A DNA stretch of 64,000 bases, from positions 1,428,001 through 1,492,000 of the forward strand of contig CM075996.1 in NCBI GenBank assembly GCA_038087875.1. Direction: 5' to 3'. Source of the DNA: Malacoraja senta. Taxonomy: Eukaryota. Within the stretch, counting starts at the first letter, position 1. Each line of letters opens with the position of its first letter. A program made the translations under genes and the position numbers. Under the pieces are notes generated by a model, which did no database searches, was not told the origin of the DNA, and worked only from the letters and a program-made list of their open reading frames with translations. This document shows, one piece after another, positions 3,839 to 56,574 of the stretch.

Positions 3839-3952
3839 AGGGAGAGCACACGAGATGCAAAACTGTGTTGACGTCAAAAGTGGGAGGTCTTATGGCCTTT
3901 GCAAAGAAAAGAAGCACATGTATAGGATGCAAAGCTGTTTTGAATGATGGCG
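3839..3952 (+). CDS. POLD1: POLD1 exon, start of the CysA metal-binding motif
   Basis: ttttgtag acceptor, GTAAGG donor. (K)[37 protein letters not shown]. 114 bp, in frame with the previous exon. Confidence 0.97.
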
Positions 3953-4232
3953 GTAAGGGTCAAAAACAACGATGACTGATTTATAAATAACAGTGCAGTT
4001 TTGGTTCCTCTGAGACGTGTTAAATGCACTTCAGAGGTTGGGCAAGAAGTTCCTTCGCTTTGATGAGGGTGTTGAACGGCACCCAGCATGTGAGGGCAGT
4101 CGTGGACTCGAAGGGCCGGTTTCCATGGTATCTCTTGGGAAGGGATAAATAACAATGGCAGGTCTCCAAGGTTGACAGCAGAAGACATGAATGACAAGAC
4201 AATTGTCACCTCTTGCTCTTTACTACTCTACT

Positions 4233-17312: not shown

Positions 17313-17818
17313 TCTCTCATAGAAATTGTGTTAACTGACTGGGCCAATTATCTTCTTAAATTTACCCCTCCTAATTCTCCCAAAAGATAAAGCCCTTGAG
17401 GCTGTGTCAATTACTTACTTTTTAATTACAGACTCAAGATCCAGATAAAAGACAAGACATTACATAGAATAAATTGCATACAAAGGCACAATAAATGACA
17501 CACAAAAGCACAGTAAATTACTTACAAAAGCACAATACATGGTTTAAGATCAAGAATAAAAAAACAGATTTGCAGACTTTTTGTTGTTAAGGACTCTGGT
17601 CAAAGATAACACAGTCACATTCCAAGTGAAAAGGTACACAGTGAGTGAAATAAGATTGGCTGCTTGTGTCCCTGTATACAACTGGCCTTTCAGCACAATT
17701 TTAATTATATTTGTTTGTGCATGTGTTAAACCTGAATAGTTTTGGTTATAAATCTGCACTGCTGTTTGGAAAGAGATTTCAAACTCAATTTTTCTTGGAT
17801 CTTCTGTTTTCTCTGCAG

Positions 17819-17871
17819 GTGCTGTGTGCAGTTACTGTAGATCTCGTCAGTCAGAGCTGTATCAGAAGGAG
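17819..17871 (+). CDS. POLD1: POLD1 exon, second half of CysA
   Basis: ttttctctgcag acceptor, GTACGA donor. (G)AVCSYCRSRQSELYQKE. 53 bp, phase 1 to 0. Confidence 0.95.
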
Positions 17872-18990
17872 GTACGACAACATCATATATTAGGATTGGA
17901 GAGCTGTATTATGCCTTGGTGAAATGTGTTCCTTTAGTTATACAGTGTACTCCGTTACACACCAGTGGGTAAAAGCACCGCACAGCGCACCGTGAAATGG
18001 ATGTATTTGTTGACCCAGTGACAACCAACTCGCCCTAAAAGGATTTTGGAATTAAGTTTCATGCAGGATTTGATCTCATAATTTGTCTGCTTCTCCAACA
18101 CCAGCAATGCAAGAGAACATTGAGAGCCCAACCACCCTTCTGATTTGCCCCTTGTGCATCAAATTGAATGCTTTGCCACATCCAGCATCCAGCGCGCTGT
18201 GGGCATTGATTTGTCCAAAGAAAAGGTGTTTATCTGAAGAAAAAAACAATGGGCCACATTAGTTTAGAGATACAGCATGGAAAGGGCCCACCGTGTCCGC
18301 GCCGACCAGCGATTCCCCTTCACTAGTACTATCCCAAACACATTAAGGACAATTTTTACCGAAGCCAATTAATCTACAACCTGTCTGACTTTGGAGCGTG
18401 GGAGGAAACCGGAGCACCCGGGGAAAACCCACGCGGTCACGGGGAGAACGTACAAACTCTGTACAGACAACACGCATAGTCAGGATCAAACCCGGGTCTC
18501 TGATGCTGTAAGGCAGCAACTCTACCCGCTGCGCCACCCTGCCGCCCCAAGTATTTTAATTTTGAAAGACAAGCCATTTGGAAAGCAGTTACTTTAATCG
18601 CAGGTTTATTATACTGGTTGATCTATGGAAGCACTAGAATACACCTCCTTGTTAAAGATTGGGGCAGGATTCAATCACAATGGTAACCAACAAAGAACAT
18701 CAAGAATTAACCATCTTTCATTTTAATATTCTGAATTTAAATCTTTAAATTGTTAACTGTGAAATTAATTTATATTATTTGTTTAGATATAAAGTTTAGG
18801 CACTGGCGATTCTCTGATACTGAGTTGAGATCTGGTCACTAGCACATGCAGGTTTAGAATATAGTCAAAGTCTTTGGATGCAGAGGAAAGGTGTAGGAAG
18901 GAACTGCAGATGCTGGTTTAAATCGAAGGTAGGCACAAACTGCTGGAGTAACTCAGCGGGACAGGCAGCATCTCTGGAGAGAAGGAATGG

Positions 18991-21150: not shown

Positions 21151-21645
21151 ATTACAGAGTGGTGTGAATACCCTGTTCTTGGGTATGCTCAAGGCTGACA
21201 ATTTTAGATTTTTTGAACATTTAAGTATCAAGGAGTGTAGACAGGAAAATGGAGTTGAAGTATGCTATTGTCCACATAATTAAGGAGGGCATGGTGCCTA
21301 CTCCACCTCATACACACCTCGTGCCCCTGCAATAAATAACTGTGCCTACATTTCCACTGGAAACTTGTCACTAAACTTGTTTTGTCATTGCAACCACCCA
21401 CCAGCTCCACAATAAGAAATGTGATAAAATACTCACAGTTGTGACATCTTTTTTTAAAACAAAAAACACACAAGGCCAAGAGTGTGATTATTTTTTTTGG
21501 TTCCTTTTGTCACCCCCTTCATGATTTGAGAGGGTGATCACACGAAACAAATCTGCTGAAGATTTTTAGTCAAAGCAAGTTTCTCCCCAATATTCTCCAT
21601 TTGTCTTCACAATCCCATCTCTGCCTTCCTCTCTCTCTCTCTCAG

Positions 21646-21743
21646 ATATCTCAGTTGAAGCTGCTGGAGGAGAAGTTTTCACGCTTGTGGACACAGTGCC
21701 AGCGATGTCAGGGCAGTCTGCATGAGGAGGTACTTTGCACCAG
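21646..21743 (+). CDS. POLD1: POLD1 exon, CysB (Fe-S) motif
   Basis: (CT)n-CAG acceptor, GTAGGA donor. [32 protein letters not shown](S). 98 bp. Confidence 0.97.
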
Positions 21744-21886
21744 GTAGGAGATGATCTTCACACTCCCATATTTAACGTGCCTCATGGAAATTGCCCTTCA
21801 CCCTGAACTATCTTCACTGGGACTTCAGGCTTTAGACTTTAAAGATACAGCAGGGGAACTGATATGCAGTCTGACCCACTGAGTTA

Positions 21887-26092: not shown

Positions 26093-26189
26093 TCGGGATT
26101 GCCCCATATTCTACATGCGGAAAAAAGTGCAGAAGGACCTCAGTGACCAGGAGAAGGTGATGGTGCGGTTTGGACCACCAGCCTGGTGA
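26093..26189 (+). CDS. POLD1: POLD1 terminal coding exon with stop codon
   Basis: tttctccgcag acceptor. (S)[31 protein letters not shown], with TGA ending at 26189. Confidence 0.97.
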
Positions 26190-38400: not shown

Positions 38401-39799
38401 GGCTGGATTGGGGGTGTTATTGTATTGTGGAAGTTCTTGGATTAGTGAGTCATTGGAATTGCTTCCAGCGAGTTAGAAATTGGATCAGAAAAGGTCTTGG
38501 ATTCATGAGTCATTGGAATAGTTCCAATATGATCGGGTTTGGGAGTGTAACTGGAATGTGGTGGGTTTAGACGAGGGCTATGTTCATAACGTCTTAAGGA
38601 ATAGACAATAGACAATAGGTGCAGGAGTAGGCCATTCTGCCCTTCGAGCCAGCACCGCCATTCAATGTGATCATGGCTGATCATCCCCAATCAGTACCCC
38701 GTTCCTGCCTTCTCCCCATATCCCCTGACTCCGCTATCTTTAAGAGCCCTATCTAGCTCTCTCTTGAAAGCATCCAGAGAACCTGCCTCCCCCGCCCTCT
38801 GAGGCAGAGAATTCCACAGACTCACCACTCTCTGTGAGAAAAAGTGTTTCTTCGTCTCCGTTCTAAATGGCTTACCGCTTATTCTTAAAGTGTGGCCCCT
38901 GGTTCTGGACTCCCCCAACATCGGGAACATGTTTCCGGCCTCTAGCGTGTCCAAACCCTTAATAATCTTATATGTTTCAATAAGAATTCTGCCATTCGGC
39001 CCATCAAGTCTACTCTGCCATTCTATCACGTTGAATGAGTGGGTCACCATGACACTGGCGTGGGATGAAGGGGCTGTGGACAAGAGGTTCATTTGGTTGT
39101 TGCGCTCAAAGCTCCTGACGTGGCCTCCTGTTCGTTGGTGAGACCAAGCGTAGACCAGGTGACCATTTCACCCAACATTTGTGCTCAAGGCCTGCTGGAT
39201 CTCCCTGTTGCCAACCATTTTAATTCCCCTTCCCCATACAAACCGTTCTGTCCTGGGCCTCCTCCATTGCCAGTGTGAAGCCACACGCAAACTGGAGGAG
39301 CAGCACCTCGTATTCCGCTTGGGCAGCTTACGCCCAGCGGTATGAACATGACTCCCTTATCTCCCTCTCCCCTGACACCAGTCTGAAGAACCTGAAACGT
39401 CACCTATTCCTTCTCTCCATAGATGCTGCCTGTTCCGCTGAGTTACCCCAGCATTCTGTGTCTAACTTCGATGTGAGCATTGAATTCTCCAATGTCAAGT
39501 AATATCTCCCAACCAATTTATCTTTCTAAGCCTCATAACCCCACCTATTTCTCTCATTCCCCCCAACTTCACCTCCCACCTATACCACCACGGACGAGGT
39601 GGGCCGAAGGGCCTGTTTTGGGCGCTGGTGCAGTTCTATGACTCTGTAAGTCGGCGACCTGCAAGAGGTATTGGGAGCAGAGTTGTGTGTCAATAGTTGC
39701 CAGTGTTGCACAGGCAGGCTTCAGGGAACAAACAACCTATTGTCACTGCTTGTGATCGGAGGTGAAATCTCGCCACTGATTTTCATATCGTTGGATACA

Positions 39800-40300
39800 T
39801 TACAGTCGCGCCTCCTCTAAACAAACAGACGTGACTTTTTGAACAGTTGTACAACTCTTGTGATCATTTCTTGGCGGTGTGTGTGGGGAAAGAGTATTGA
39901 CGAGTTCCCTGTGAAATAAGACGTCCTGGCCCTCTCCTGACACACACACACACACACACACACACCAGCAGCCAAACCCATTCGCACACAACGTTAAACC
40001 AGTCCCAGAAGATCTGTGCATTGGGCAATGTGAAAAGGGGATTTTTTTTTTTTTTTTTTGCAGTCAAATCACCAAGCTCCTCCCATTCCCAAAATGCAGA
40101 TTCTTTTTAAAAGCTTGTAGCGACACGAGCTGCTCTCAAAGGAAACTAGACGGAAGATTGGACGCGACACCTCTGGTTAAATTCAACATGCACTCTCTGG
40201 AGACGCCACAGTGAGTAAAATGCAATGTAGACCCCGAGAAACACACAGTCCCATCCCAGCCCAGCCCAGCCCAGCCCAACACGCCCGGGGGGAAGTTCTC
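39800..40300 (+). promoter_or_regulatory. Candidate SPIB promoter/first-exon region
   Basis: Transposon-free island with (CA)n at about 39939-39965, octamer-like ATGCAGAT (40094-40101), TTTAAAA (about 40106), and ETS cores AAAGGAAAC (40138-40146), CGGAAG (40151) and GGGGAAGT (40289-40296). Confidence 0.45.
40188..40210 (+). CDS. SPIB: Candidate first coding exon of Spi-B/Spi-D (PU.1-family ETS factor)
   Basis: caacATG CAC TCT CTG GAG ACG CCA CA|GTGAGT gives MHSLETP(Q), 23 coding nt and a phase-2 donor. This resembles the human SPIB start MLALEAA(Q) as recalled, and lies between POLD1 and MYBPC2 where SPIB lies in mammals. Confidence 0.65.
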
Positions 40301-41013
40301 CAAACTTTTTACAAACTATTCTACTGGACATCTATGTCAATAGAAACCCCTCTGTTTGGAGTTGCCTTCGTCCACATTGCTTGCTAATAGTTTGTAATAA
40401 CTTGTCAGTATTAAAAACTGAAGCTTCTATTTCGGGTTTGGACCGAACTGATGTTGGACTTTAGCGGTGTGCCAATAAGATTGGATTTTTGTTGTACGGG
40501 GTTTTAAAGAAAATGAACCAATTTACAAAACGGATGGCAAAAAAAACCAAAAGAAAGTATGAATTTAATTTTGGGATTCAAAGAAAATGAATCGATTGAA
40601 GCTGCAACAATCTGGGCTGGTTTAAAACAACTGGTGTTGGGCACAAACATGTTTTGTAACAAACCTTTGACAGAATGTGTTTAGTGAAGTCGCCTCTCCC
40701 TGTGAGCATGTGTGATATTGGCCTCTTGGTGGTAACTTCTGGACTTCCAAATCTTGATTATAATGAGTAAAATGTGTCAGTGTCACAGACGTTCTTTGAG
40801 TTGCACTTGGATGACACTTGAACTGATTTTAAAATAAATCTCATTGTCGCTGACTGAAATACTGGTAATTTAAAATGCAGGGGAGTAAGTAATTGGGGCG
40901 GGTGGAGTGGTTTCCAAGAATGTCAGGGTGACAGGATCAGAGCAAAAACATTGGCTAGAAGTTCCACATGGATGAATGCTTTCGTTTCATCAGTCCTGAA
41001 GAAGGGTCTCGAC

Positions 41014-41239
41014 TCCATCGACTCCTTTAAGTCGAGACTTAAAACTCATCTCTACTCCCAAGCCTTTCTTGACGTCCTCTGAGCGAGGGCTGTATGTATG
41101 TAGTGATGTTTGTATTTAATCTATGAACCACTGTTGTATAACATTAGTATCTCCACCAATGTAAAGCACTTTGGCCAACGAGAGTTGTTTTTTAAATGTG
41201 CTATAGAAATAAAAGTGACTTGACTTGACTTGACTTGAC
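41014..41239 (+). mobile_element. L2 3' end, same family as 20166-21150
   Basis: Near-identical to about 20959-21150, with a (TTGAC)n tail. Inserted into a Penelope hammerhead motif. Confidence 0.88.
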
Positions 41240-44200
41240 CCGAAACATCACCTATTGCTTCTCTCCAGAGATGCTGCCAGACCCGCTGAGTTACTCCAGC
41301 ACTCTGTGAAACATCACCTATCCATGTTCTCCACAGATGCTGCCTGACCCGCTGAGTTACTCCAGCACTCTGTGAAACGTCACCTATCCATGTTCTCCAC
41401 AGATGCTGCCTGACCCGCTGAGTTACTCCAGCACTCTGTGTCTATCTTTGATTTAAACCGGCATCTGCAGTTCTTTCCTACACATGGATGCTTTTGTTGA
41501 TGTCTGTCCCAACACCACATGTGTTAACCTGCAGCTCTCTGCCGACCCCGACTTTGTGACAGATAAGGGGACAGGTGTTGGCTTTTCACACCAGCAACTT
41601 TCCACCATCTGTGGAATTCTCTGCCTCAGAGGGCAGTGGGGGCCAATTCTCTGGATGCTTTCAAGAGAGAGTTAGATATAGCTCTTAAAGATAGCGGAGT
41701 CAGGGGATATGGGGAGAAGGCAGGAACGGGGTACTGATTGGGGATGATCAGCCATGATCACATCGAATGGCGGTGCTGGCTGGAAGTGCTGAATGGCCTA
41801 CTCCTGCACCTATTGTCTATTGACAGCTATGGGATGGACAGTTAATCAGCTTGTCGCTGGTGTGTGTGGAACTGGAAATGTAGGCTTGGACACCAGAGCC
41901 CACTTCTACACTCTGATGTTCTTTATTATTGACACTGGCTAATATAAATAGACAGCATATTTACATATTCTTTTGTCTTTTGCTGCCTCTACTGTTGTGC
42001 AACTTGTTCTCACTCTCTAATGAAGTTATCGTTCTTCTGTATCTGTCCAACATGAAGCCTACTTGAATAGTTTCGGTAGAAACAATGAAACCGCAGATGC
42101 TGCTTTTTACTGAAGATAGACACAGAGTGCTGGAGTAACTCAGCGGGTCAGGCAGCATCTGTGGAGAACATGGATAGGTGACGTTTCACAGAGTGCTGGA
42201 GTAACTCAGCGGGTCAGGCAGCATCTGTGGAGAACATGGATAGGTGACGTTTCACAGAGTGCTGGAGTAACTCAGCGGGTCAGGCAGCATCTGTGGACAA
42301 CATGGATAGGTGACGTTTCACAGAGTGCTGGAGTAACTCAGCGGGTCAGGCAGCATCTGTGGAGCGAAGGAAATGGGCAACCTTTCGGGCCGAAACCCTG
42401 AAGGAAATAGGCAACGTTTCGGGCCGAAACCCGGAAGGGTTTCGGGCCGAAACGTTGCCTATTTCCTTCGCTCCATAGATGCTGCCGGAACATGGATAGG
42501 TGACGTTTCACAGAGTGCTGGAGTAACTCAGCAGGTCGGGCAGCATCTGTGGGGAACATGGATAGGTGACATTTCACAGAGTGCTGGAGCAACTCAGCGG
42601 GTCAGGCAGCATCTGTGGGGAACATGGATAGGTGACGTTTCACAGAGTGCTGGAGTAACTCAGCGGGTCAGGCAGCATCTGTGGAGCGAAGGAAATGGGC
42701 AACCTTTCGGGCCGAAACCCTGAAGGAAATAGGCAACGTTTCGGGCCGAAACCCGGAAGGGTTTCGGGCCGAAACGTTGCCTATTTCCTTCGCTCCATAG
42801 ATACTGCCGGAACATGGATAGGTGACGTTTCACAGAGTGCTGGAGTAACTCAGCGGGTCGGGCAGCATCTGTGGGGAACATGGATAGGTGACATTTCACA
42901 GAGTGCTGGAGCAACTCAGCGGGTCGGGCAGCATCTGTGGGGAACATGGATAGGTGACGTTTCACAGAGTGCTGGAGTAACTCAGCGGGTCAGGCAGCAT
43001 CTGTGGGGAACATGGATAGGTGACGTTTCACAGAGTGCTGGAGTAACTCAGCGGGTCAGGCAGCATCTGTGGGGAACATGGATAGGTGACGTTTCGGGTC
43101 AGGACCCTTCCCGCTGAGTTACTCCAGCACTTTGTGTCCACCTTCGATTTTATCCAGCATCTGCAGTTCTTCCTCACAAAAGAAGCCGTGACATTGTGTT
43201 ACAGTTGTACGAGACGTTGGTGAGAGTTGCGCTTGGAGTATTGTGCTTGGTTTTGGAAAGCCTGGCTGTAGGAAGGATTAAGCTGGAGAGAAGCGGAGTA
43301 GATTTATGAAGGTGGACAAAAAAGTGCTGGAGAAACTCAGCGGGTGAGGCAGCATCTATGGAGCGAAGGAAATAGGCAACGTTTTGGTCAGCATTGGAGA
43401 GTCTGAGCTAGAGGGGGAGATTAAACAGGCTTGGACTTTACTCCTTGGAGTGCAAGATTCTATTGGGTGATCTTATTGAGGTGTATAAAGTTGTGAGGGG
43501 AATAGACAGGGTCTCTCTCCAGCAGGATAGAGGAATCAAAAACTAAAAGATATGGGTCTAATATGAGGTGGGGTGGGTGGGGGGGGGAAAGCCTCATCGG
43601 AGCCTGAGGGACAATGCTTACACTCGGAGGCCGGTGTGTATCCTATCCAAGCCTTTCACTATTCACTAACTCCAGCGAGGGCCGACAAATGCTCATTGTC
43701 GGTCAACCTACTCATTCCTGGGATCTTTCTTGTAAACCCCTCCATGTCCAGATAGATCTATGATATTCCTACTTGCTGCACGACAGAATGTGTAAACATG
43801 GTCCACTGTAAATAATATCATAAACGAGAAAAAAAAGTTCAGTGTGTGTATGTATACACTCACTCACGTATACACGTATGTATATACACACACACGCACC
43901 ACACATACGTACACATAAAAAACAAACAAATCATAATAGTGCAATAATAACAATAATAGTCTAAATGGTGGAGTAACTCAGTGGGACAGCATCATCTCTG
44001 GAGAGAGGACAATAGGTGCAGGAGTAGGCCATTCGGCCCTTCGAGCCAGCACCGCCATTCAATGTGATCATGGCTGATCATCCCCAATCAGTACCCCGTT
44101 CCTGCCTTCTCCCCATATCCCCTGACTCCGCTATCTTTAAGAGCCCTATCTAGCTCTCTCTTGAAAGTATCCAGAGAACCGGCCTCCACCGCCCTCTGAG

Positions 44201-44872
44201 GCAGAGAATTCCACAGACTCACCACTCTCTGTGAGAAAAAGTGTTTCCTCGTCTCCGTTCTAAATGGCTTACCCCTTATTCTTAAACTGTGGCCCCTGGT
44301 TCTGGAATGGGTGACGTTTCGGGTCGAGACCCTTCTATCTGTGGTGTAAACCAGCATCTGCAGTTCCTTCATACACAATAATAGTCGAAGTAGTTCAGAG
44401 TTGATTTGAGGTTGCCGTGTTTAATAGCCGGATGGATGAAGGGAGGAAGCTGTTCCTGAACCTGGACGTTACAGTTTTCCAGCTCCTGTACCTTCTTCCT
44501 GTCCTACCTCCGGCCACTGTCCATCACAGCCCAAGATATCCATCATTCACCACTGTGGGATTTTCTGCAGGAAATGTTTCTGTAGTAAACTCAAAATGCC
44601 GCAAATATTCAGCAGCGTCAGGCAGCAACTGCAGAAAGAGAATACAAAATGCTGGAGTAACTCAGTGGGTCAGGCAGCATCTGCAATAGAAAGGTAATGT
44701 TTAAAACATCACCTGTCCTTGTTCTCCAGAGATGCTGCCTGACCTGCTGAGTTACTCCAGCACTCTGCATTTTGTGCAAGATTCTAGCATCTGCAGTTAT
44801 AACCATTACCCCTTTTTTCTCACAGAGAGTTGTGAATCTGTGGAATTCTCTGCCTCAGAGGGCGGTGGAGGC

Positions 44873-45072
44873 NNNNNNNNNNNNNNNNNNNNNNNNNNNN
44901 NNNNNNNNNNNNNNNNNNNNNNNNNNNNNNNNNNNNNNNNNNNNNNNNNNNNNNNNNNNNNNNNNNNNNNNNNNNNNNNNNNNNNNNNNNNNNNNNNNNN
45001 NNNNNNNNNNNNNNNNNNNNNNNNNNNNNNNNNNNNNNNNNNNNNNNNNNNNNNNNNNNNNNNNNNNNNNNN
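44873..45072. other. Assembly gap (200 N, placeholder size)
   Basis: Run of exactly 200 N. The left flank ends inside a CR1 fragment and the right flank starts in a SINE fragment. Confidence 0.99.
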
Positions 45073-45512: not shown

Positions 45513-45702
45513 GCTACCTGCTGGAAAGGAAGAAGAAAACCAGCACGAGATGGATGAAGCTGAACTTCGAACCCTTGCAGACGACCCAGTTCACGGCCAC
45601 GCGGATGATCGAGGGCTGTCAGTACGAGATGCGTGTGTTTGCCATGAACGGGATCGGTCTGAGCCCCTCCCAGCATCTCCTCACGCACCTTCATGCCCAT
45701 TG
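45513..45702 (+). CDS. MYBPC2: Myosin-binding protein C fast-type exon (C6 Fn3, second half), with a +1 frameshift
   Basis: cctcccgcag acceptor, GTGAGT donor. (G)[50 protein letters not shown], then [12 protein letters not shown] in the shifted frame. 190 bp where 189 is needed. Confidence 0.9.
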
Positions 45703-45722
45703 GTGAGTGACCACACTTGGCG

Positions 45723-45928
45723 GCACTGGGCACTGGGCGCTGGGCGCTGGGCACTGGGCGATGGGCGCTGGGCAGTGGGCGCTGGGCGCTGGGCACTGGG
45801 CACTGGGCACTGGGCACTGGGCGCTGGGCGCTGGGCGCTGGGCAGTGGGCACTGGGTGCTGGGCGCTGGGCACTGGGCACTGGGCGCTGGGCACTGGGCG
45901 CTGGGCGCTGGGCGCTGGGCACTGGGCG
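45723..45928. repeat. (GGGCRCT)n 7-bp tandem repeat
   Basis: About 29 copies of gggcact/gggcgct starting about 20 nt after the MYBPC2 donor. Confidence 0.95.
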
Positions 45929-47319
45929 GTGATCTGGGATTTTCCCAACGCTCTACGGCAGGGGTTCAAGATTCAAGAATCAAGTGAGTTTATTGTCATG
46001 TGTCCCTGATTGGACAATGAAATTCTTGCTTTGCTTCAGCACAACAGAACATAGTAGGCATTGACTACAAAACAGATCAGTGTGTCCATATACCATTCTA
46101 TAAATATATACACACATGAATAAATAAACTGATTAAAGTGCAAATAACAGATAACGGGCTATTAATGTTCAGAGTTTTGTCCGAGCCAAGTTTAATAGCC
46201 TGATGTTTCTCTTCTGGTGGGTTAGGGGCCGTCGCTGGCAAAGCCCCACGCCACCATACCCATTTCTGAAGTTCATAGGTTATAGGAGCAGAATTAGGCC
46301 GTTCGGCCCCATCGAGTCTACTCCGCCATTCAATCGTGGCTGATCTATCTCTCCCTCAACCCCATTCTCCTGCCTTCTCCCCATCACCTCTGACACCCGC
46401 ACTAATCAAGAATCTATCTACCTCTGCCTTAGAAATATCCACTGACTTGGCCAGTGGCAAATAATCCTGCAGATTCACCACCCTGTGACTAAAGAAAGTC
46501 TACTCTGCCATTTGTTGTCCCATCATCTCCCACTACCCCAGTCACCCTCATCCTCCTCCTCCTCACACTCATCACCCCTCCCCGAATCCCTTTCCCCTTT
46601 ATCCCCCTCTCTCCCCCTCTCCCCCTGTCCCCTTCCCCCCATCTCCCACCCTCCGGCTTCACATTTCACCCCTGCTCACCTCTCCGTATCTATAGATAGA
46701 GCTCTAGGGGCTAGTGGAATCAAGGGATATGGGAGAAGGCAGGCACGGGTTATTGATTGGGGACGATCAGCCATGATCACAATGAATGGCGGTGCTGGCT
46801 CGAAGGGGCCGAATGGCCTCCTCCTGCACCTATTGTCTATGTTTCTATGTATCTGCCACTCTATTGTCTCCTTTTCACCTCCAGCCTTTGTCATTTACTC
46901 CGCCCATCTACACATCACCCAACCTCTCCTGTATCCACCTATCGCTTATGCAGGAAGGAACTGCAGATGCTGGTTTACACTGAAAACAGACACAAAATGC
47001 TGGAGTAACTCAGCGGGTCAGGCAGCATATGTGGAGAAAAGGAATAGGTGATATTTCGGGTACGAAGAAGGGATTCGACCCAAAACGTCACCCACTCATT
47101 TCCTCCTGAGATGTTGTCTGAGTTACTCCTGCATTTTGTATCCATCTATCACTTGCCAGACTTTGTCACCCCCCCCCCCCCCCCCCCCCACCTCCCTTTT
47201 CCAGCTTTGGTCCAGGTTTGAGGAAGGGTCCCGACCCGAACTCAGCGGGTCGGGCAGATGCTGCCCGACCCGCTGAGTTCCTCCAGCACTTTGCCTTTTG
47301 CTCAGGGTATCTTTAACAA

Positions 47320-47985
47320 AATATATATATATATTTTTTAAATTTCAAAATATACTTTATTTGAGAAATAAATATTTGCAATACATGATCCTTACAAAAC
47401 TCTACCTGACATTTTCAGAGGCTATACATACATTCAATACTGTTTACACAAATGACACCAATTTTTTCCCCTCACCCTTGCCACTCATGTGGCCCACTGG
47501 CGTGGAATCGCTTGCCTTATTTTGAGGGGCGTCTCCACCACACCCTGCCCCCCCCCCCCCCAATGTCCAGCAGCGGAAGGACCCTAGACTGTGGTCCTCC
47601 TCCACCCCCCCACCGAGCCTTGGCGTTGGCTGCACCGAGCTTCAGTGCGTCCCTCAGCACGTACTTACTCCTGCAATCTGCAGCGGGCCAGTCGGCAACA
47701 TTCCCCCGACGGACATCTCGCTCCGCTGGGTGGTCGACAGCACTCGGGCAGACCAAAGAGCGTCTTTCACCCAGTTGATGACCTTCCAGCAGCACTCGAT
47801 GTCCGTCTACGAATGCGTCCCTGGGAACAGTCCGTAAATCACAGAGTCCTCTGTGATGGAGCTGTTCGGAGTAAACCGTGCCAGGGGGCCCCTTGCAGAC
47901 TTCTCCAGACTCTCTTTGCGAATCCACACTCTGCAAGGAGGTGGGCACCTCGATGTCTGCAGCCGCAGTCCCCCGAGTCTCCCTG
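47320..47985 (-). mobile_element. Tx1/L1-clade LINE 3' fragment
   Basis: Frameshifted minus-strand [13 protein letters not shown]...VIYGLFPGTH...YVLRDALKLGAANAKARWG (zf-RVT-like ORF2 end), followed by AATAAA and an AT-rich tail. Confidence 0.7.
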
Positions 47986-48013
47986 ACACTGACCGTTGCT
48001 TTCACATGTCCAG

Positions 48014-48148
48014 GTACCACCAGCGAGCCGACACACTTGATCGTTGACGATGTCACAGACACCACCACCACACTGAAGTGGAGGATGCCAGAGAAGATCG
48101 GCCCCGGGGGACTGGATGGCTACCTGATTGAATATGCAAAGGAAGGCT
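48014..48148 (+). CDS. MYBPC2: MYBPC2 exon (C7 Fn3, first half)
   Basis: CAG acceptor, GTAAGT donor. (G)[44 protein letters not shown]. 135 bp, phase 1-1. Confidence 0.94.
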
Positions 48149-48170
48149 GTAAGTACCACACCGTTGATAG

Positions 48171-48585
48171 TCAAAGATCCTACAGCGGAGCAAGATAGAC
48201 CACACTCCTGCTAAATGCAATGGGCTGACGTGTAGTACGCAACGGAACGGAACGGAACGGGGGCCTTTTTTTCATCCATTTCAGTAACCCCGACCCGACC
48301 CGACTCGCAGTGTAATCAACGTTGCGGGGGAACAGTTTGTGTTAATAAATTATAATTCTGAAAATGAGGAGAAGATTTTTACCAAAGAACTTTTATTTTT
48401 ACGAGGATGTTTCCGTAACCGGCTTCCGTCTCCGCGCTAGTTATCTTTGCTCCGCTCTGGGATCTTTGGTGCGGAGACGGAAGCCGGTTACGGAAATGGG
48501 GCCGAAAATTACCCGTGAATCTGCCCATGACCGTACTACGTCTTTTTCGTCGAGTGGACTATCTTGCTCGCTATAGGGTCTTTGG
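48171..48585. mobile_element. Unclassified 415-bp TIR element with an 18-bp TSD
   Basis: Imperfect TIRs of about 35 bp (tcaaagatcctacagcggagcaagatag... and ...ctatcttgctcgctatagggtctttgg). Direct repeats gtaccacaccgttgatag (48153-48170) and gtaccacgtcgttgatag (48586-48603). Confidence 0.75.
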
Positions 48586-50994
48586 GTACCACGTCGTTGA
48601 TAGCTTCCATTATCTCAGGGAGGGGCTTGGATGAGGATTTAATGGTTTAACTTGTAACTGGTCACTCACCCTCTGGTGGGTTTATGCAACCAGCTGCCAG
48701 AGATGGTAGTCGAGGCAGGTATTTTAACAGCAATGAAAAGACACTTTAATTTAGTTTTGTTTAGTTTGCTTTAATTTAGAGATACAGTGGAAACAGGCCC
48801 TTCGGCCCATCGAGACCGCACTGCCCAGCGATCACTCCGCACACTTAACACTATCCTACACACCAGGGACAATTTACAGAGGTCAATTAACCTGTGAACC
48901 TGTGCATCTTTGGGATGTGGAAGGAAACCGGAGCACCTGGAGAAAACCCGCACGGTGACGGGGAGAACGTACAAACTCCACACAGACAGCACCCAGAGTC
49001 AGGATAGTACGCGTGTCTCTGGCATTGTAAGGCAGCAACTCTACCACTATACCGCTTGGACAGGTACATGGATAGGACAGGTTTAGAGGGTGAAGGGCCA
49101 AACGCGGGCAGGTGGGACTGGTGTAGATGGGCCATCTTGGTCGGTGTCGGGCAAGTTGGGCCGAAGGGCCTTCTTCTGGACTGTACTCTTTGATGGGTCA
49201 TGGTTCATGTGTGAATGACATTCGTCCGGAGAGTGGTGCAGCGGGTAGAGCTGCTGCCTCACAGCGCCAGAGACCCCGGGTTCCATCCTGACTACGGGAG
49301 CTGTCTGTGTACGGAATGTGTACATTCTTCCTGGGACCGCGTGGGTTTCCTCTGGGTGCTTCGGTTTCCTCCCGCGACCCAAATACACGCGGGTTTGTAG
49401 GTAAATCGCCCCCTAGTGTGTCGGGAGTGGATGAGAAAGTGGGATAGCATAGAACTAGTGAGAGCGGGTGATCGATGGTCGGCATGGACTCAGTGGGCCG
49501 AAGGGCCTGTTTCCATGATATATCTCTAAACTAAAGTAACATAAAGTGCCGTACACATGGAGCGGGGCAAGAGCAAGCTGCCTCTATTCTGTTTGTGTTT
49601 GATCATTTACTTTGTAAATATACAGTCTTCTTCTTTTCGTGTCCATCTTGTTACGAATGTTGGCCTCGCTGCCTTGTTCATCAGTCTATGAAAGTAAGCA
49701 TGCAGGTACAGCAGGCAGTGAAGAAAGCGAATGGCATGTTGGCCTTCATAACAAGAGGAGTCGAGTATAGGAGCAAAGAGGTCCTTCTGCAGTTGTACAG
49801 GGCTCTAGTGAGACCACACCTGGAGTATTGTGTACAGTTTTGGTCCCCTAATTTGAGGAAGGACATTCTTGCTATTGAGGGAGTGCAGCGTAGGTTTACA
49901 AGGTTAATTCCCGGGATGGCGGGACTGTCATATGCTGAGAGAATGGAGCAGCTGGGCTTGTACACTCTGGAGTTTAGAAGGATGAGAGGGTATCTTATTG
50001 AAACATATAAGATTATTAAGGGCTTGGACACGCTAGAGGCAGGAAACATGTTCCCGATGTTGGGGGAGTCCAGAACCAGGGGCCACAGTTTAAGAATAAG
50101 GGGTAAGCCATTTAGAACGGAGACGAGGAAACACTTTTTCTCACACAGAGAGAGTGGTGAGTCTGTGGAATTCTCTGCCTCAGCGGGAGGTGCAGGCCGG
50201 TTCTCTGGATACGCACTGCTTTGCGGCCAATATACGGTACAACCAGATAATGAGTGAAGGTTTCTATATTTCTTCAGTACAGAATAGCATCTTTCTCCAA
50301 GGTGGTTTTCATAGCTAGTGTTCGGGGCAGGACAAATGTTCACTAGCAGACAGCATTGTCCATCCACAAGTTTCAGTTTGGTTTATTGTCACGTGTACCG
50401 AGGTACAGTGAAAAGCTTTTGTTGCGTGCTAACCAGTCAGCGGAAAGACAATACATGATTACAATCGAGCCGTTCACAGTGTACAGATACATGATAAGGG
50501 AATAACGTTTAGTATAAAGTATAAAAGTATCCTTTATTGTCATTCAGACATTTCAGTGTGAATGAAATTGTGAACCTTGCAGTCCTAACATAGAATAAAA
50601 TAACAACACACACACTTAACACAGTTTAACATCCACCACAGTGACTCTACCAGGCACCTCCTCACTGTGATGGAAGACTTTGTCTCTTCCCTTCCCTAGT
50701 GCAAGGTGAAGCCAGTAACATCCCATCAAAGAGGTAGATAGTAGTTCAGGACTGCTTTCTACTTATGGTAGGATGGTTCAGTTGCCTGATAACAGTGGGG
50801 AAGAAACTGTCCCTGATCAGGTGTGATCAGTTTGCAGTGGGCTGGTGGGGCCAAAGGGCCTGTTTCCATGCTATATCTTTCAGTCAATCAGTCCAGCCTC
50901 TTCCACTATCCCATTGAGCCAAACGTCGGCCAGCTTCAAGTGTGAATGTGAGCAGCGCTCTTGTGTTCACCTTCGACCCTCTGCTTCCTTGTAG

Positions 50995-51162
50995 CCGACG
51001 ACTGGACTGTAGCCAACACTAAACTGGTGGAGCGTCTGGGATACACGGTCAAGGACCTTCCCACCGGAGAGAAGATTAACCTCCGTGTGCGGGCTGTGAA
51101 CATCGCTGGGAAGAGTCCACCTGCCATGCTCGCCCAGTCGGTCACTATCCGTGAGATAGTCC
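50995..51162 (+). CDS. MYBPC2: MYBPC2 exon (C7 Fn3, second half)
   Basis: cttccttgtag acceptor, GTAAGT donor. (S)DDWTVANTKLVERLGYTVKDLPTGEKINLRVRAVNIAGKSPPAMLAQSVTIREIV. 168 bp. Confidence 0.94.
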
Positions 51163-51312
51163 GTAAGTGGAGTCGCCGGCCGTACAACTGCACGGGAGGC
51201 GGGAGGACAATGACCACGTGAACACCTCATCCTTCTCTAGCCAAGATGGAGTAACAGCCAGGGATGAGCTTGCACTGAGATGCTCCCATGCGCTCAATGC
51301 CATCAACCTTCT

Positions 51313-52085
51313 GAATGAATGAATGAATGAATGATGAATGAAGAACGAAAAATACATTGGTGAATGATGAATAAAAAATAACTTGATGAATGAAGAATGA
51401 AAAATACATTGATGAATGATGAATGAAAAATAAATTGATGAATGAAGAATGAAAAATACATTGATGAATGATGAATGAAAAATAAATTGATGAATGAAGA
51501 ATGAAAAATACATTGATGAATGATGAATGAATGAAAAATAAATTGATGAATGATGAATGAAAAATAAATTGATGAATGAAGAATGAAAAATACATTGATG
51601 AATGAAGAATGAAAAATAAATTGATGAATGAAGAATGAAAAATACATTGATGAATGATGAATGAAAAATAAATTGATGAATGAAGAATGAAAAATACATT
51701 GATGAATGATGAATGAAAAATAAATTGATGAATGAAGAATGAAAAATACATTGATGAATGATGAATGAAAAATAAATTGATGAATGAAGAATGAAAAATA
51801 CATTGATGAATGAAGAATGAAAAATACATTGATGAATGATGAATGAAAAATAAATTGATGAATGAAGAATGAAAAATACATTGATGAATGAAGAATGAAA
51901 AATACATTGATGAATGAAGAATGAAAAATACATTGATGAATGAAGAATGAAAAATACATTGATGAAGAATGAATGAAAAATAAATTGATGAATGAAGAAT
52001 GAAAAATAAATCGATGAATGAAATATAAATTGATGAATGATGAATGAAAGATGAATGAAAAATAAATTGATGAATGATGAATGAA
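51313..52085. repeat. (GAAT)-derived AT-rich minisatellite (about 26-bp unit)
   Basis: Repeats of tgatgaatga(a/t)gaatgaaaaata(c/a)at. Confidence 0.95.
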
Positions 52086-52985
52086 CGAATACCTATTGTT
52101 ACACGTGACAAGTCACAGTGATATTCTTTGTATTGCATGCATACGTACCCAAGGTATGCAAAGAGTCGCTATATAAAGTATCCCACGCCGCGTCCGCCAT
52201 TTTTCTCCCCCCCTCCCCGTTCCTCACAGCGGTCCCCTACGCCGGGTCCTCCATTGTTCTGCTGCCCCCACCCCGTCTCATGGCGGTTCCCCCCCATGCC
52301 GGGACCACCATTGTTCCCAGCGAAGGTTTGGGTCTGGGACCTAACATTGGTCATCTGTTGCTGTGGTTTGTCGCTGCAGCTATGGCAGTAGAGATGGCGG
52401 GCGTCGTATATCTGGTCGCCCAGCTATGGGAAAGATGCCATCAGTTTAGTTTAGTTTATTGGTCGACAAAATGGCTGGAGAAACTCAGCGGGTGCGGCAG
52501 CATCTATGGAGCGAAGGAAATGGGCAACGTTTCGGGACGAAACGTTGCCCATTTCCTTCGCTCCATAGATGCTGCCGCACCCGCTGAGTTTCTCCAGCAA
52601 TTTTGTCTACCTTCGATTCTCCAGTATCTGCAGTTCCTTCTTGAGTAGCTTAGTTTATTGCCATGTGTAAGTTAACTGTCCCTCTGTATATTGCCCCCTA
52701 GTTTGTAGGGAGTGGACGTGAAAGTGCGATTAACATAGAACTGGTGCGAACAGGTGATCGATGGTCAGCATGGGCATGTTGGGCCGAAGGGCCTGTTTCT
52801 ATGCTGTATCGCTACACTCCACAGAGGAGGTTAACACACAGTGTGACTCACTCACCAATTTTGCTAACTTGAGTTTGAGCTGAGTTCAGTTTATTGTCAC
52901 GTGTACCGAGGTGCAGTGAAAATCTTTTGTTGAGCACTAACCAGTCAGCGGAAAGACAATACATGATTACAATCGAGCCGTCCAC

Positions 52986-53120
52986 TTCTTCTTTCGTCTG
53001 GCGTGCACGGCCTAAAGTTGTTGGACAACTTGTTCTATTTGATCTTCCGTTCGTGCACGTCGAGTTGATTGCATTAGTCGAAAAAGGGCGGACCACGTGA
53101 AGGTTGCAATCTTCCACCCC
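52986..53120 (-). mobile_element. 135-bp non-autonomous retroposon with a 5' HDV-like ribozyme fold and (GAA)n tail
   Basis: Flanked by the exact direct repeat gagccgtccac (52975-52985 and 53121-53131) inside a Rex/Babar 3' tail. Minus-strand 3' end is ...GCCAGACGAAAGAAGAA. Confidence 0.8.
53067..53120 (-). ncRNA. Minimal HDV-like self-cleaving ribozyme (predicted)
   Basis: RNA GGGGUGG-AA-GAUUGCA-ACC-UUCACGU-GGU-CCGCCCU-UUUUCGA-CUAA-UGCAAUC. P1 7 bp with G-U at position 1, P2 7 bp perfect, P3 3 bp, 7-nt L3, and J4/2 CUAA. Confidence 0.7.
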
Positions 53121-53685
53121 GAGCCGTCCACAGTGTACAGATACAGGATAAGGGGAATAACATGAATAATGTTTAGTGCAAGGTGAAGTCCGATCGAAGA
53201 TAGTCTCAGGGTGTCAAAGGAGGTAGATGGGAGCTCAGGACTAGGATAGTTCAGCTGGGAATAAAAGCTGGGAAGAATCTTAAGTTGGAAATTAAATTGG
53301 AAGGGTTGCAGTCGAGATTCACCAGGATGTTACCTGGGATTTGAGTTACAGGGAGAGGTAGGATAGGCTAGGACCATTTTCCTTGGGTGTAGGAGGCTGA
53401 GGGGTGACCTTATTGAGGTGTACAAGATCATGAGGGGCGCGGATAAAGTTGAACGCTCACAGTCTTTTTTTTTCCCAGGGTAGAGGATTCTAAAACTAGA
53501 GGGCACAGGCTTAAGGTGAGAGGGGAGAGATTTAAGAGGGAGCATAATGGACAACTTTTTCTCTCAGAGGGAAGTCCGTATCTGAAATGAGCTGCCGGAG
53601 GAAGTTGTATAAGTGGGTACAAGTATGATATTTGTGCTGGAATTGGGTGTGAATTCCACTGAAGCAGGATTGAGTGAGGTCACAC

Positions 53686-54105
53686 TATCCATGGTCAGTA
53701 TTGTCTATGGTCAGTATTGTCTATGGTCAGAATGGTCCATGGGTCAGTATGGTCAGAATGGTCCTTGGGTCAGTATGGTCCATGGGTCAGAATGGTCCTT
53801 GGGTCAGTATGGTCCATGGGCCAGAATGGTCCATGGGTCAGTATGGTCAGAATGGTCCTTGGGTCAGTATGGTCCATGTGCCAGAATGGTCCATGGGTCA
53901 GTATGGTCCATGGGTCAGAATGGTCCTTGGGTCAGTATGGTCCATGGGCCAGAATGGTCCATGGGTCAGTATGGTCAGAATGGTCCTTGGGTCAGTATGG
54001 TCCATGGGCCAGAATGGTCCTTGGGTCAGTATGGTCCATGGGCCAGAATGGTCCATGGGTCAGTATGGTCACTATTATCCATGGTCAGTATTGTCCACGG
54101 TCAGA
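53686..54105. repeat. ATGGTC-based minisatellite
   Basis: Repeats of atggtcag(t/a) and atggtcc(a/t)tggg. Confidence 0.93.
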
Positions 54106-54299
54106 ATAAGCACCCCAGACCAAACCAAGGGGAAGTAAAGAACAGCAAACTGTGTCAGAGAGACTTGATGGTGCAGTGAAGAATCGTGGTTGGACTTGAG
54201 TCCCGAGAGTTATGTATAGCCACGGTCAGTGTGACCATCGGGACGAGTTGCTGCTGACTTGTCAGCGTCTAATCTGCCCATTTTCTTTTTGCCATGTAG

Positions 54300-54388
54300 A
54301 ACACCCAAAAATCTGGCTGCCACGGAAACTGAGGCAAACATACATCAAGAAAGTTGGTCAGCAAATAAATATTATGATCCCGTTCCAG
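54300..54388 (+). CDS. MYBPC2: MYBPC2 exon (start of C8 Ig domain)
   Basis: TAG acceptor, GTGACT donor. (Q)[29 protein letters not shown]. 89 bp, phase 1 to 0. Confidence 0.94.
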
Positions 54389-54399
54389 GTGACTAATTG

Positions 54400-54490
54400 T
54401 TCTGTGTGTGTGCGCGCGCTCATGTGTTTGTGTTTGTGCGTGTGTGTGTGTCATTGTGTGTGAGTCTTTGTGTGTGTGTGTGTGTGTGTC

Positions 54491-54524
<34 letters not shown>

Positions 54525-54544
54525 TGTGTGTGTGTCTGTGTGTC

Positions 54545-54584
<40 letters not shown>

Positions 54585-54656
54585 CGTGTGTGTGTCTGTG
54601 TCATTGTGTGTGTGTGTGTGTGTGTGTCATTGTGTGTGTGTGTGTGTGTCTGTGTC

Positions 54657-54690
<34 letters not shown>

Positions 54691-54728
54691 ATTGTGTGTG
54701 TGTGTGTGTGTGTGTGTGTCTGGGTGTC

Positions 54729-54761
<33 letters not shown>

Positions 54762-54838
54762 TTGTGTGTGTGTGTGTGTGTGTGTCTGTGTGTGTGTGTG
54801 TCTGTGTGTCATTGTGTGTGTGTGTGTGTGTGTGTGTC

Positions 54839-54874
<36 letters not shown>

Positions 54875-54954
54875 ATTGTGTGTGTGTGTGTCTGTGTGTC
54901 ATTGTGTGTGTGTGTGTGTGTGTGTCATTGTGTGTGTGTGTGTCATTCTGTGTC

Positions 54955-54988
<34 letters not shown>

Positions 54989-54996
54989 TGTGTGTC

Positions 54997-55065
<69 letters not shown>

Positions 55066-55257
55066 CTGTGTGTCATGTGTGTGTGTGTGTGTGTGTGTCT
55101 GTGTGTCATTGTGTGTGTGTGTGTGTGTCTGTGTGTCATTGTGTGTGTGTGTCTGTGTCATTGTGTGTGTGTGTGTGTGTGTCATTGTGTGTGTGTGTGT
55201 CATTGTGTGTGTGTGTCATTGTGTGTGTGTGTGTGTGTGTCATTGTGTGTGTGTGTC

Positions 55258-55340
<83 letters not shown>

Positions 55341-55345
55341 GTGTC

Positions 55346-55386
<41 letters not shown>

Positions 55387-55399
55387 GTGTGTGTGTGTC

Positions 55400-55440
<41 letters not shown>

Positions 55441-55487
55441 GTGTGTGTGTCATTGTGTGTGTGTGTGTGTCATTGTGTGTGTGTGTC

Positions 55488-55552
<65 letters not shown>

Positions 55553-55597
55553 CATTGTGTGTGTGTGTGTGTGTGTGTGTCATTGTGTGTGTGTGTC

Positions 55598-55690
<93 letters not shown>

Positions 55691-55740
55691 ATTGTGCGTG
55701 TGTGTGTGCGTGTGTGTGTGCGTGTGTGTGTGCGTGTGTC

Positions 55741-55808
<68 letters not shown>

Positions 55809-55845
55809 TGCGCGTGCGCGTGCGCGTGCGTGTGCGTGTGTGTCT
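54400..55845. repeat. About 1.45-kb interrupted (TG)n microsatellite
   Basis: TG runs punctuated by cat/ct/cg, beginning about 12 nt after the exon donor at 54388. Confidence 0.98.
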
Positions 55846-55849
55846 TTGT

Positions 55850-56285
55850 GCAAAAAAGTTATCCTTCAGGTCACTATTAAATCTTTCCCCCTTCACCTTA
55901 AACATGTGTCCTCTGGTCCTCGATTCCCCTACTCTGGGCAAGAGACTCTGTGCATCTACCCGATCTATTCCTCTCATGATTTTATACACCTCTATAAGAT
56001 CACCCCTCATCTTTCCTGCGCTCCAAGGAATAGAGTCCCAGCCTGCTCAACCTCTCCCTGTAGCTCAGTCCCTTGAATCCTGGTAACATCAACCTAAATC
56101 TTATCTGCACACTTCCCAGCTTGACAACATATTTCCTATAACGTGGTGACCAAAACTGAACATAACACTGTAAATGTGGCCTCACCAATGTCTTGTGCAA
56201 CTGCAACATGACCTCCCAACTTCTACACTCAATATTCTGACTGACGAAGGCCAATGTGTTGACCTTCTTGACCGCCCTATCAAGT
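55850..56285 (-). mobile_element. CR1/HER1-like LINE 3' fragment
   Basis: LVRPHLQCYVQFWSP and RGDLIEVYKIMRGIDRVD. Related copies at about 23695-24070 (+), 29548-29915 (-), 43195-43640 (+) and 53300-53625 (+). Confidence 0.85.
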
Positions 56286-56378
56286 CTTCTTGTCCACCCT
56301 GTCCACTTGTGAGGTCGTTCGTGATCACACTTCACTGCCTGAGTTTAACTGACCCGCCCGAACTTTGAACCCTGTCAG

Positions 56379-56574
56379 GGTAAGCCTCGACCTCAGGTCA
56401 CTTGGAAGAAGGAAGGACAGCCGCTGGACACCAGCCAGGCCAGTGTCCGCAACAGCGAGGTGGACACCATCTTCTTTGTGCGCAGCGCAGAGCGTAGCCA
56501 CTCTGGGACGTATGAGCTCAGCGTTCAGATTGAAAACCTGATTGACACGGTTTCGGTCAAAATCCGTGTTGTTG
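56379..56574 (+). CDS. MYBPC2: MYBPC2 exon (C8 Ig domain)
   Basis: CAG acceptor, GTGAGT donor. GKPRPQVTWKKEGQPLDTSQASVRNSEVDTIFFVRSAERSHSGTYELSVQIENLIDTVSVKIRVV. 196 bp. I did not find the C9/C10 exons before the window end. Confidence 0.94.

What the first reader, a model, noticed from the sequence alone, without database searches (positions are those of the whole stretch)
40094..40300. Hidden 23-nt first coding exon of SPIB/Spi-D missed by the ORF track
Seen: caacATGCACTCTCTGGAGACGCCACA|GTGAGT lies in a transposon-free island. Upstream are an octamer-like ATGCAGAT and ETS cores; downstream are (CCCAG)n and GGGGAAGT. Known: human order is POLD1-SPIB-MYBPC2 on one strand, with paralogous SPI1-MYBPC3 and SPIC-MYBPC1 pairs. 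Human SPIB starts MLALEAAQ with a very short first coding exon (recalled), and PU.1/Spi-B promoters use octamer and ETS autoregulatory sites. Inference: this is the start of the skate Spi-B orthologue (Spi-D), suggesting the exon structure and B-cell-type promoter logic predate the split of cartilaginous and bony fish.
Basis: partly seen in the sequence, partly recalled or inferred. Interest (0 to 1): 0.7.

Follow-up and report, generated by a model that had tools for sequence, protein, structure and literature searches.

The report
First exon of skate Spi-B gene
This 23-base stretch is the real start of a skate's known blood-cell regulator gene Spi-D, which position, exon size and family tree show to be the shark-and-ray copy of Spi-B; the rest of the gene is missing at an assembly gap, and the proposed B-cell promoter signals are not above chance.

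Summary
ATG at 40188, 23 nt, then GTGAGT at 40211; it is the only such ATG-donor unit in the window. It encodes MHSLETP-Q, identical (8/8) to the N-terminus of Raja eglanteria SpiD (AAG33643.1), Amblyraja 'Spi-B' and a Leucoraja 'PU.1-like' protein; chance expectation 3e-6. It lies between the POLD1 stop (26189) and fast-type MYBPC exons, the SPIB position in Xenopus. Published Xenopus spib morpholinos give the same 23-nt exon. Chondrichthyan SpiD groups with tetrapod SPIB (96/94), though a SpiD+PU.1 clade is not rejected (p=0.078). All later SpiD exons and the first ~736 MYBPC residues are absent, and a 200-N gap (44873-45072) lies where they belong. The promoter claim is unsupported: the motifs occur at chance rates, and the mouse Spib octamer lies in an intron-1 promoter, not upstream of exon 1. 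Splicing in this species was not tested. A known gene correctly spotted; low novelty.

The parts
40188..40210 (+). First coding exon (coding part) of SPIB/Spi-D: codons 1-7 (MHSLETP) plus the first two bases of codon 8
   Evidence: 8/8 identity to N-termini of SpiD AAG33643.1, XP_032869255.1, XP_055519406.1; chance 3e-6
40211..40216 (+). Phase-2 splice donor GTGAGT of intron 1
   Evidence: Sequence; same offset as the Xenopus spib exon1-intron1 junction; isoform models of Mustelus, Stegostoma and hare break at codon 8
39992..41013 (.). Window-unique island holding the exon, its 5' flank and the start of intron 1
   Evidence: Self-BLAST; X1 contig 40068-41013 identical and unspliced
40094..40101 (+). 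Octamer-like ATGCAGAT (1 mismatch); its ATG also opens an out-of-frame 8-codon ORF. Function not shown
   Evidence: such matches are below shuffle expectation
40141..40155 (+). Two GGAA cores (40141-40144, 40152-40155), neither a full PU-box. Function not shown
   Evidence: absent from the PU-box scans
40042..40063 (+). T18 + GCAG: either a poly-T in the promoter or a splice acceptor, which would make 40064-40210 an internal exon behind an upstream non-coding exon
   Evidence: Only strong pyrimidine+CAG site in 39477-40187; use not tested
40250..40296 (+). (CCCAG)4 microsatellite and a GGGGAAGT ETS-like core in intron 1. Function not shown
44873..45072 (.). 200-N assembly gap at the place where SpiD residues 9-273 and fast MYBPC residues 1-~736 should be encoded
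26093..26189 (+). Last coding exon of POLD1 (stop TGA 26187-26189), upstream neighbour; earlier exons at ~2674-2811, ~3835-3957, ~17818-17875, ~21643-21744
   Evidence: Pfam DNA_pol_B and zf-C4pol on two of the exons. The last exon itself had no Pfam hit and is named from recalled POLD1 sequence and position
45513..56573 (+). Five exons of fast-type myosin-binding protein C (MYBPC2 / 'mybpc Ca'), residues ~737-998 of 1209; downstream neighbour

Best explanation
40188-40210 is the first coding exon of this skate's Spi-D gene, the cartilaginous-fish orthologue of SPIB, a PU.1-family ETS transcription factor. Translation starts at 40188; the exon is spliced at 40210/40211 inside codon 8 to a short second exon, and the mRNA goes on to an acidic/Gln-rich activation region, a PEST region and a C-terminal ETS domain that binds purine-rich GGAA sites in leukocyte genes. 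Shown: peptide identity, gene order, tree placement, same exon length as Xenopus spib. Inferred: use of the donor in this species, the place of the later exons (in the unassembled gap at 44873-45072), and function (from family knowledge). The 5' motifs are not shown to be promoter elements.
For: 8/8 N-terminal identity with three skate proteins, one being SpiD itself. Of 22 listed chondrichthyan entries of this group 3 match 8/8, 9 match 7/8, 4 match 6/8, 4 match 5/8 and 2 (alternative-start isoform models) 1/8; the 120 listed PU.1-type hits match at most 3/8. Rabbit and hare SPIB start MLALEAAQ, 4/8. Expected chance occurrence 3e-6. Order POLD1 > exon > fast MYBPC on one strand is the spib position in Xenopus. 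Reverse complements of the two published X. tropicalis spib morpholinos (worked by hand) give ATG + 20 nt then GTAAGT. Tree: SpiD group + SPIB 96/94; a SPIB+PU.1 clade without SpiD is rejected at p=0.040.
Against: No spliced read or contig from this species was seen using the donor. No later exon is in the window, so the gene cannot be read through here. A SpiD+PU.1 clade is not rejected (p-AU 0.078), and the SPIB rows have odd composition. RefSeq names for the same group are split between 'Spi-B(-like)' and 'PU.1-like'. Equal contig length shows one chromosome, not adjacency; POLD1's position was not checked in other chondrichthyans.
Confidence: 0.93

Rival explanations
1. The exon is the start of Spi-D, but Spi-D is a separate fourth family member or a PU.1 duplicate, not the SPIB orthologue.
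For: SpiD+PU.1 clade not rejected (p=0.078); several RefSeq entries are named PU.1-like; SpiD shares with PU.1 an FT(Q/E)LQ block that rabbit SPIB lacks; a 2026 review lists spid apart from spib.
Against: It occupies the POLD1-MYBPC2 slot of spib; same 23-nt first exon as Xenopus spib; best tree joins it to SPIB 96/94; true PU.1 of Pristis and Hypanus are separate genes on other contigs with other N-termini. The shared block is most simply ancestral.
Confidence: 0.04
2. The exon is an orphan: this species has truly lost the rest of Spi-D together with the 5' part of MYBPC2, or the scaffold is mis-joined at the gap.
For: No SpiD residues beyond 8 and no MYBPC residues before ~737 in the window.
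Against: The missing block coincides with a run of 200 N; order and strand on both sides are as expected; the exon has an intact ATG and donor and is identical in peptide to relatives with whole genes.
Confidence: 0.02
3. The ATG and donor are a chance match in non-coding DNA.
For: The exon is only 23 nt; no transcript evidence from this species.
Against: Exact match to a peptide predicted before the search, expected 3e-6 times (2e-7 with the GT), at the syntenic position.
Confidence: 0.005
4. On the promoter only: ATGCAGAT (40094) and the GGAA cores are a functional octamer-plus-ETS autoregulatory promoter.
For: The order octamer > ETS > ATG resembles the PU.1 promoter (recalled, no call); OBF-1 regulates mouse SpiB (PMC3960507 passage); CpG ratio is slightly raised at 40100-40300 (0.67 vs 0.48).
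Against: One mismatch in the octamer; 41 such sites vs 65.6 expected, about a 13% chance in any 200 bp; the cores are not full PU-boxes; the mouse Spib octamer is in the intron-1 promoter; T18-GCAG at 40042-40063 may be an acceptor, which would put the motifs in the 5' UTR.
Confidence: 0.12

Closest known systems
SpiD of Raja (Rostroraja) eglanteria, AAG33643.1, and its 90% cluster (Amblyraja radiata 'Spi-B' XP_032869255.1; Leucoraja erinacea 'PU.1-like' XP_055519406.1)
   Same: First 8 residues identical; SPI gene and fast MYBPC on one contig in both annotated skates.
   Different: No difference seen in the 8 residues; the other 265 residues are not in the window.
Tetrapod SPIB (Xenopus tropicalis spib; rabbit and hare Spi-B)
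   Same: POLD1-SPIB-MYBPC2 position; 23-nt phase-2 first coding exon; M-x-x-L-E/D start; sister group in the tree.
   Different: 4/8 identity to rabbit at the N-terminus and 48% for whole SpiD-type protein vs rabbit; the stretch before the conserved Tyr is one residue shorter; the mouse promoter plan (kB + TATA before exon 1, octamer in intron 1) is not recognisable here.
PU.1/SPI1 and SPIC
   Same: Same ETS subfamily and PEST-ETS layout.
   Different: Other N-termini (batoid PU.1 MEGYLVAP, bird MLQACKME, SPIC MxC..QD); separate clades; batoid PU.1 on other contigs.

Membership tests
Spi-D (chondrichthyan SPI gene) | N-terminus MH[ST]LE[TAS]PQ of SpiD and its cluster | tested here: met
   8/8 to AAG33643.1 and two other skate proteins
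Spi-D (chondrichthyan SPI gene) | C-terminal ETS domain (PF00178) in the same gene | tested here: inconclusive
   Present in SpiD P0285; absent from the window, whose expected place is the N gap
Spi-D (chondrichthyan SPI gene) | Spliced transcript using the 40210/40211 donor in lymphomyeloid tissue | not testable with these tools
   No RNA holder listed; the one run is an unspliced contig
SPIB orthologues | Between POLD1 and MYBPC2 on one strand | tested here: met
   Window exons; MYBPC hits named fast-type / Ca; criterion from PMC2577559. The downstream link crosses an N gap
SPIB orthologues | 23-nt first coding exon ending in phase 2 of codon 8 | tested here: met
   Xenopus morpholino sequences (by hand); hare isoforms diverge at codon 8. 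The human exon size is recalled, not tested
SPIB orthologues | Clade with tetrapod SPIB to the exclusion of PU.1 and SPIC | tested here: met
   96/94 support, on SpiD proteins of relatives, not the window's own; AU 0.040 and 0.078 for the two alternatives, so only one is rejected
Mammalian Spib promoter architecture | kB site and TATA box upstream of exon 1 | tested here: not met
   No GGGRNWYYCC with up to 1 mismatch between 39206 and 43585; no TATAWA match between 34877 and 40187; GGGGATTTTT at 40037-40046 has 2 mismatches
Mammalian Spib promoter architecture | Perfect octamer in an intron-1 promoter | tested here: inconclusive
   None in 40211-44872, but intron 1 runs into the gap
Mammalian Spib promoter architecture | Motif conservation across species and mapped start site | not testable with these tools
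   No eukaryote genomes or CAGE on hand

The most novel reading that the evidence does not exclude
Spi-D, still listed as a separate fish-specific factor, is simply SPIB, and its skate first promoter keeps an octamer-then-ETS autoregulatory layout like PU.1's, inherited from the single SPI gene before the vertebrate genome duplications, while mammals moved the octamer to a second, intronic promoter and put NF-kB control upstream. The orthology half is likely (about 0.93); the promoter half is not excluded but rests on chance-level motifs.
Probability: 0.1. Interest if true: 0.45.

Novelty: already known. Interest (0 to 1): 0.2.

Why it matters
Practically, it marks a gene that automatic annotation of this assembly would drop, because all but 23 coding bases fall in a gap. 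Scientifically, position, exon size and tree together equate Spi-D with SPIB, which puts the PU.1/Spi-B/Spi-C trio at the base of jawed vertebrates and makes skate Leydig and epigonal organs usable for asking whether Spi-B's first role was myeloid (as in Xenopus) or B-lymphoid. RefSeq already names many of these proteins Spi-B or Spi-B-like, so this tidies naming more than it surprises.

Tried and rejected
Own-genome search: no genome held, so the missing exons could not be sought on other scaffolds. RNA search: no RNA holder listed; this is no evidence on expression. Laying run X1: one unspliced contig, no joints. Exon 2 in 40211-44872: best scores 20-21 against a self-score of 47; no 9-mer of four SpiD-type proteins above 31; tblastn of two skate SpiD proteins gave 0 hits at E 0.5. 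ETS motifs in six frames: none real. A SPIC-like 'DVEQDK' peptide at about 27830 was looked at and dropped: no splice context seen and not the SPIC locus. kB scan: nothing near the exon, 118 sites vs 188 expected. PU-box scan: 11 vs 7.0 +/- 2.2. The internal PU.1 peptide MHVLDTP scores 29 against the exon peptide but is internal and below the N-terminal SpiD match at 40. Earlier scan notes: none found. Anderson et al. 2001 not held; PMC7815747 had nothing on the PU.1 octamer. Tree rows: 47 chosen by hand from about 300 stored proteins; the POLD1-like N-terminal parts of two mis-fused reptile models were left out.

Full report
Observation. The described sequence is present: ATG at 40188, 23 nt to 40210, GTGAGT at 40211. 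It is the only ATG + 20 nt + GTRAG on either strand of the window. It lies in a stretch (39992-41013) with no self-match in this repeat-rich window. One contig of the single listed run, X1, matches 40068-41013 without a difference or joint; X1 may be the window's own source, so it is not independent.

Neighbours. C-terminal POLD1 exons lie on the + strand at about 2674-2811, 3835-3957, 17818-17875, 21643-21744 and 26093-26189 (Pfam DNA_pol_B and zf-C4pol on two of them). The stop at 26189 is 14.0 kb before the ATG. Five exons from 45513 to 56573 match residues about 737-998 of the 1209-residue Amblyraja fast-type myosin-binding protein C at 87-97% identity; all 8 hits of the exon search are named fast-type or 'Ca' MYBPC of sharks, rays and skates. 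A run of 200 N lies at 44873-45072.

Identity of the exon. An ETS-domain seed from a metagenome motif scan was used to collect SPI-family proteins. Among 261 proteins, one began with MHTLETPQ (score 40, next best 29 and internal). It is Hemiscyllium 'Spi-B-like', representative of a 25-member shark and ray cluster, of which 15 were listed. A search with its first 165 residues added skate and chimaera clusters. Of 22 listed chondrichthyan entries (isoforms included) 3 match 8/8, 9 match 7/8, 4 match 6/8, 4 match 5/8 and 2 match 1/8; the 120 listed of 491 PU.1-type hits match at most 3/8. An exact 7-codon + CA match is expected 3e-6 times in the window.

Exon boundary. Isoform models break at codon 8: Mustelus X2 reads MHTLEAPH, an insert, then IETSQ; Stegostoma X3 reads MR then IEPSQ; hare SPIB X1 replaces MLALEAAQ and rejoins at LDAPH. 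The two X. tropicalis spib morpholinos printed in PMC2577559, reverse-complemented by hand, give ATG + 20 nt followed by GTAAGT, i.e. the same 23-nt phase-2 exon. The human exon size is recalled and was not tested.

Where the rest is. No SpiD residue after 8 is encoded in the window (tblastn 0 hits; best exon-2 score 20-21 of 47 in 40211-44872; no ETS motif), and the first ~736 MYBPC residues are missing too. Both belong between 40211 and 45513, where the gap lies. The simplest reading is an unassembled block much longer than 200 bases (inference). No genome was held to look for it.

Spi-D versus SPIB. Costa et al. define Xenopus spib by its place between pold1 and mybpc2 (PMC2577559 passages); the window shows that order. 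Five further species had no MYBPC listed, and Mobula hypostoma could not be compared. Pristis and Hypanus PU.1 report other contigs. In a 47-row tree the nine SpiD-group rows join tetrapod and paddlefish SPIB at 96/94. Against this: a SPIB+PU.1 clade is rejected only narrowly (p-AU 0.040), a SpiD+PU.1 clade is not rejected (0.078), and mammalian SPIB rows have odd composition. Orthology thus rests on synteny, exon size and tree together.

Promoter. Octamer matches with up to 1 mismatch number 41 against 65.6 expected; RRGGAAGT 18 against 11.8 +/- 3.4; the two upstream GGAA cores are not full PU-boxes. In mouse the promoter before exon 1 has a kB site and TATA box, and the octamer lies in a second promoter in intron 1 (PMC5129760 passages). 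The window has no kB match with up to 1 mismatch near the exon, no TATAWA match between 34877 and 40187 and no perfect octamer in the assembled part of intron 1. T18-GCAG at 40042-40063 could be an acceptor, putting the motifs in a 5' UTR. Xenopus spib acts in primitive myeloid cells and skate spid is reported from gonad and Leydig organ, which hold B and myeloid cells (PMC13670022 passage), so 'B-cell-type' is not a given. An octamer-then-ETS order like the PU.1 promoter (recalled) is not excluded.

How it works. Shown: coding identity, gene order, exon size, tree placement. Inferred: translation from 40188, splicing at 40210/40211 to a short exon 2, and a 273-residue PEST-ETS factor (ETS domain at 174-255 of SpiD) acting on GGAA sites in leukocyte genes. 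Not tested: expression and splicing in this species.

Literature seen. Passages only of PMC13670022, PMC2577559, PMC5129760, PMC3960507 and PMC7815747 (nothing relevant). Anderson et al. 2001 was not held; I saw its title in a reference list, and that it treated Spi-D as a distinct member is recalled. No supplements were read. Searches for a printed statement that Spi-D is SPIB found none, and the 2026 review lists spid apart from spib and calls it fish-specific; but the library lacks most subscription journals, genome-paper supplements may state it, and RefSeq already names the Amblyraja protein Spi-B.

Verdict. A real, correctly identified first coding exon of a known gene, stranded by an assembly gap. 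Gene identity about 0.97, SPIB orthology about 0.93, promoter claim about 0.1. Novelty: already known. Interest 0.2.

Noticed in passing
   Followed up: partly
window 40037-40063: GGGGAT followed by T18 and GCAG, about 150 nt before the ATG: a 2-mismatch kB-like half site at roughly the place of the mouse kB site, and also a possible splice acceptor.
   Followed up: partly
window 44873-45072: The 200-N gap must stand for most of SPIB and about 60% of MYBPC2; annotation of this assembly will show both genes broken.
   Followed up: yes
P0199 (Polyodon spathula XP_041093635.1): Paddlefish Spi-B-like groups with tetrapod SPIB at 99/93, although PMC2577559 noted spib as apparently absent from the fish genomes of 2008.
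   Followed up: partly
P0138, P0143, P0186, P0224: A separate ray-finned-fish clade (named spi2, Spi-C or Spi-B-like) has N-termini such as MLTTLETV and MLTSLEPV that echo the SPIB start, yet falls outside SPIB, PU.1 and SPIC in the tree; possibly a fourth duplicate.
   Followed up: no
P0197, P0206, P0210: Three database gene models (a tortoise, the tuatara and an unnamed one) fuse POLD1 C-terminal exons to SPIB exons, annotation artefacts that independently show the POLD1-SPIB adjacency.
   Followed up: partly
P0082 (Pristis PU.1-like X2) residues ~118-134: The model contains a peptide matching a SINE-like repeat that is common in the window: an exonised repeat or annotation error.
   Followed up: no
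PMC13670022, section 2.3.1: The review says the skate has spid besides spi1 and spib, then discusses spic; recalled, the 2001 paper reported PU.1, Spi-C and Spi-D, so 'spib' there may be a slip.
   Followed up: no
L001-L004: Contigs in the metagenome collection carry vertebrate SPI-family exons (one identical over 80 residues to bird PU.1), i.e. host DNA in metagenomes.
   Followed up: no
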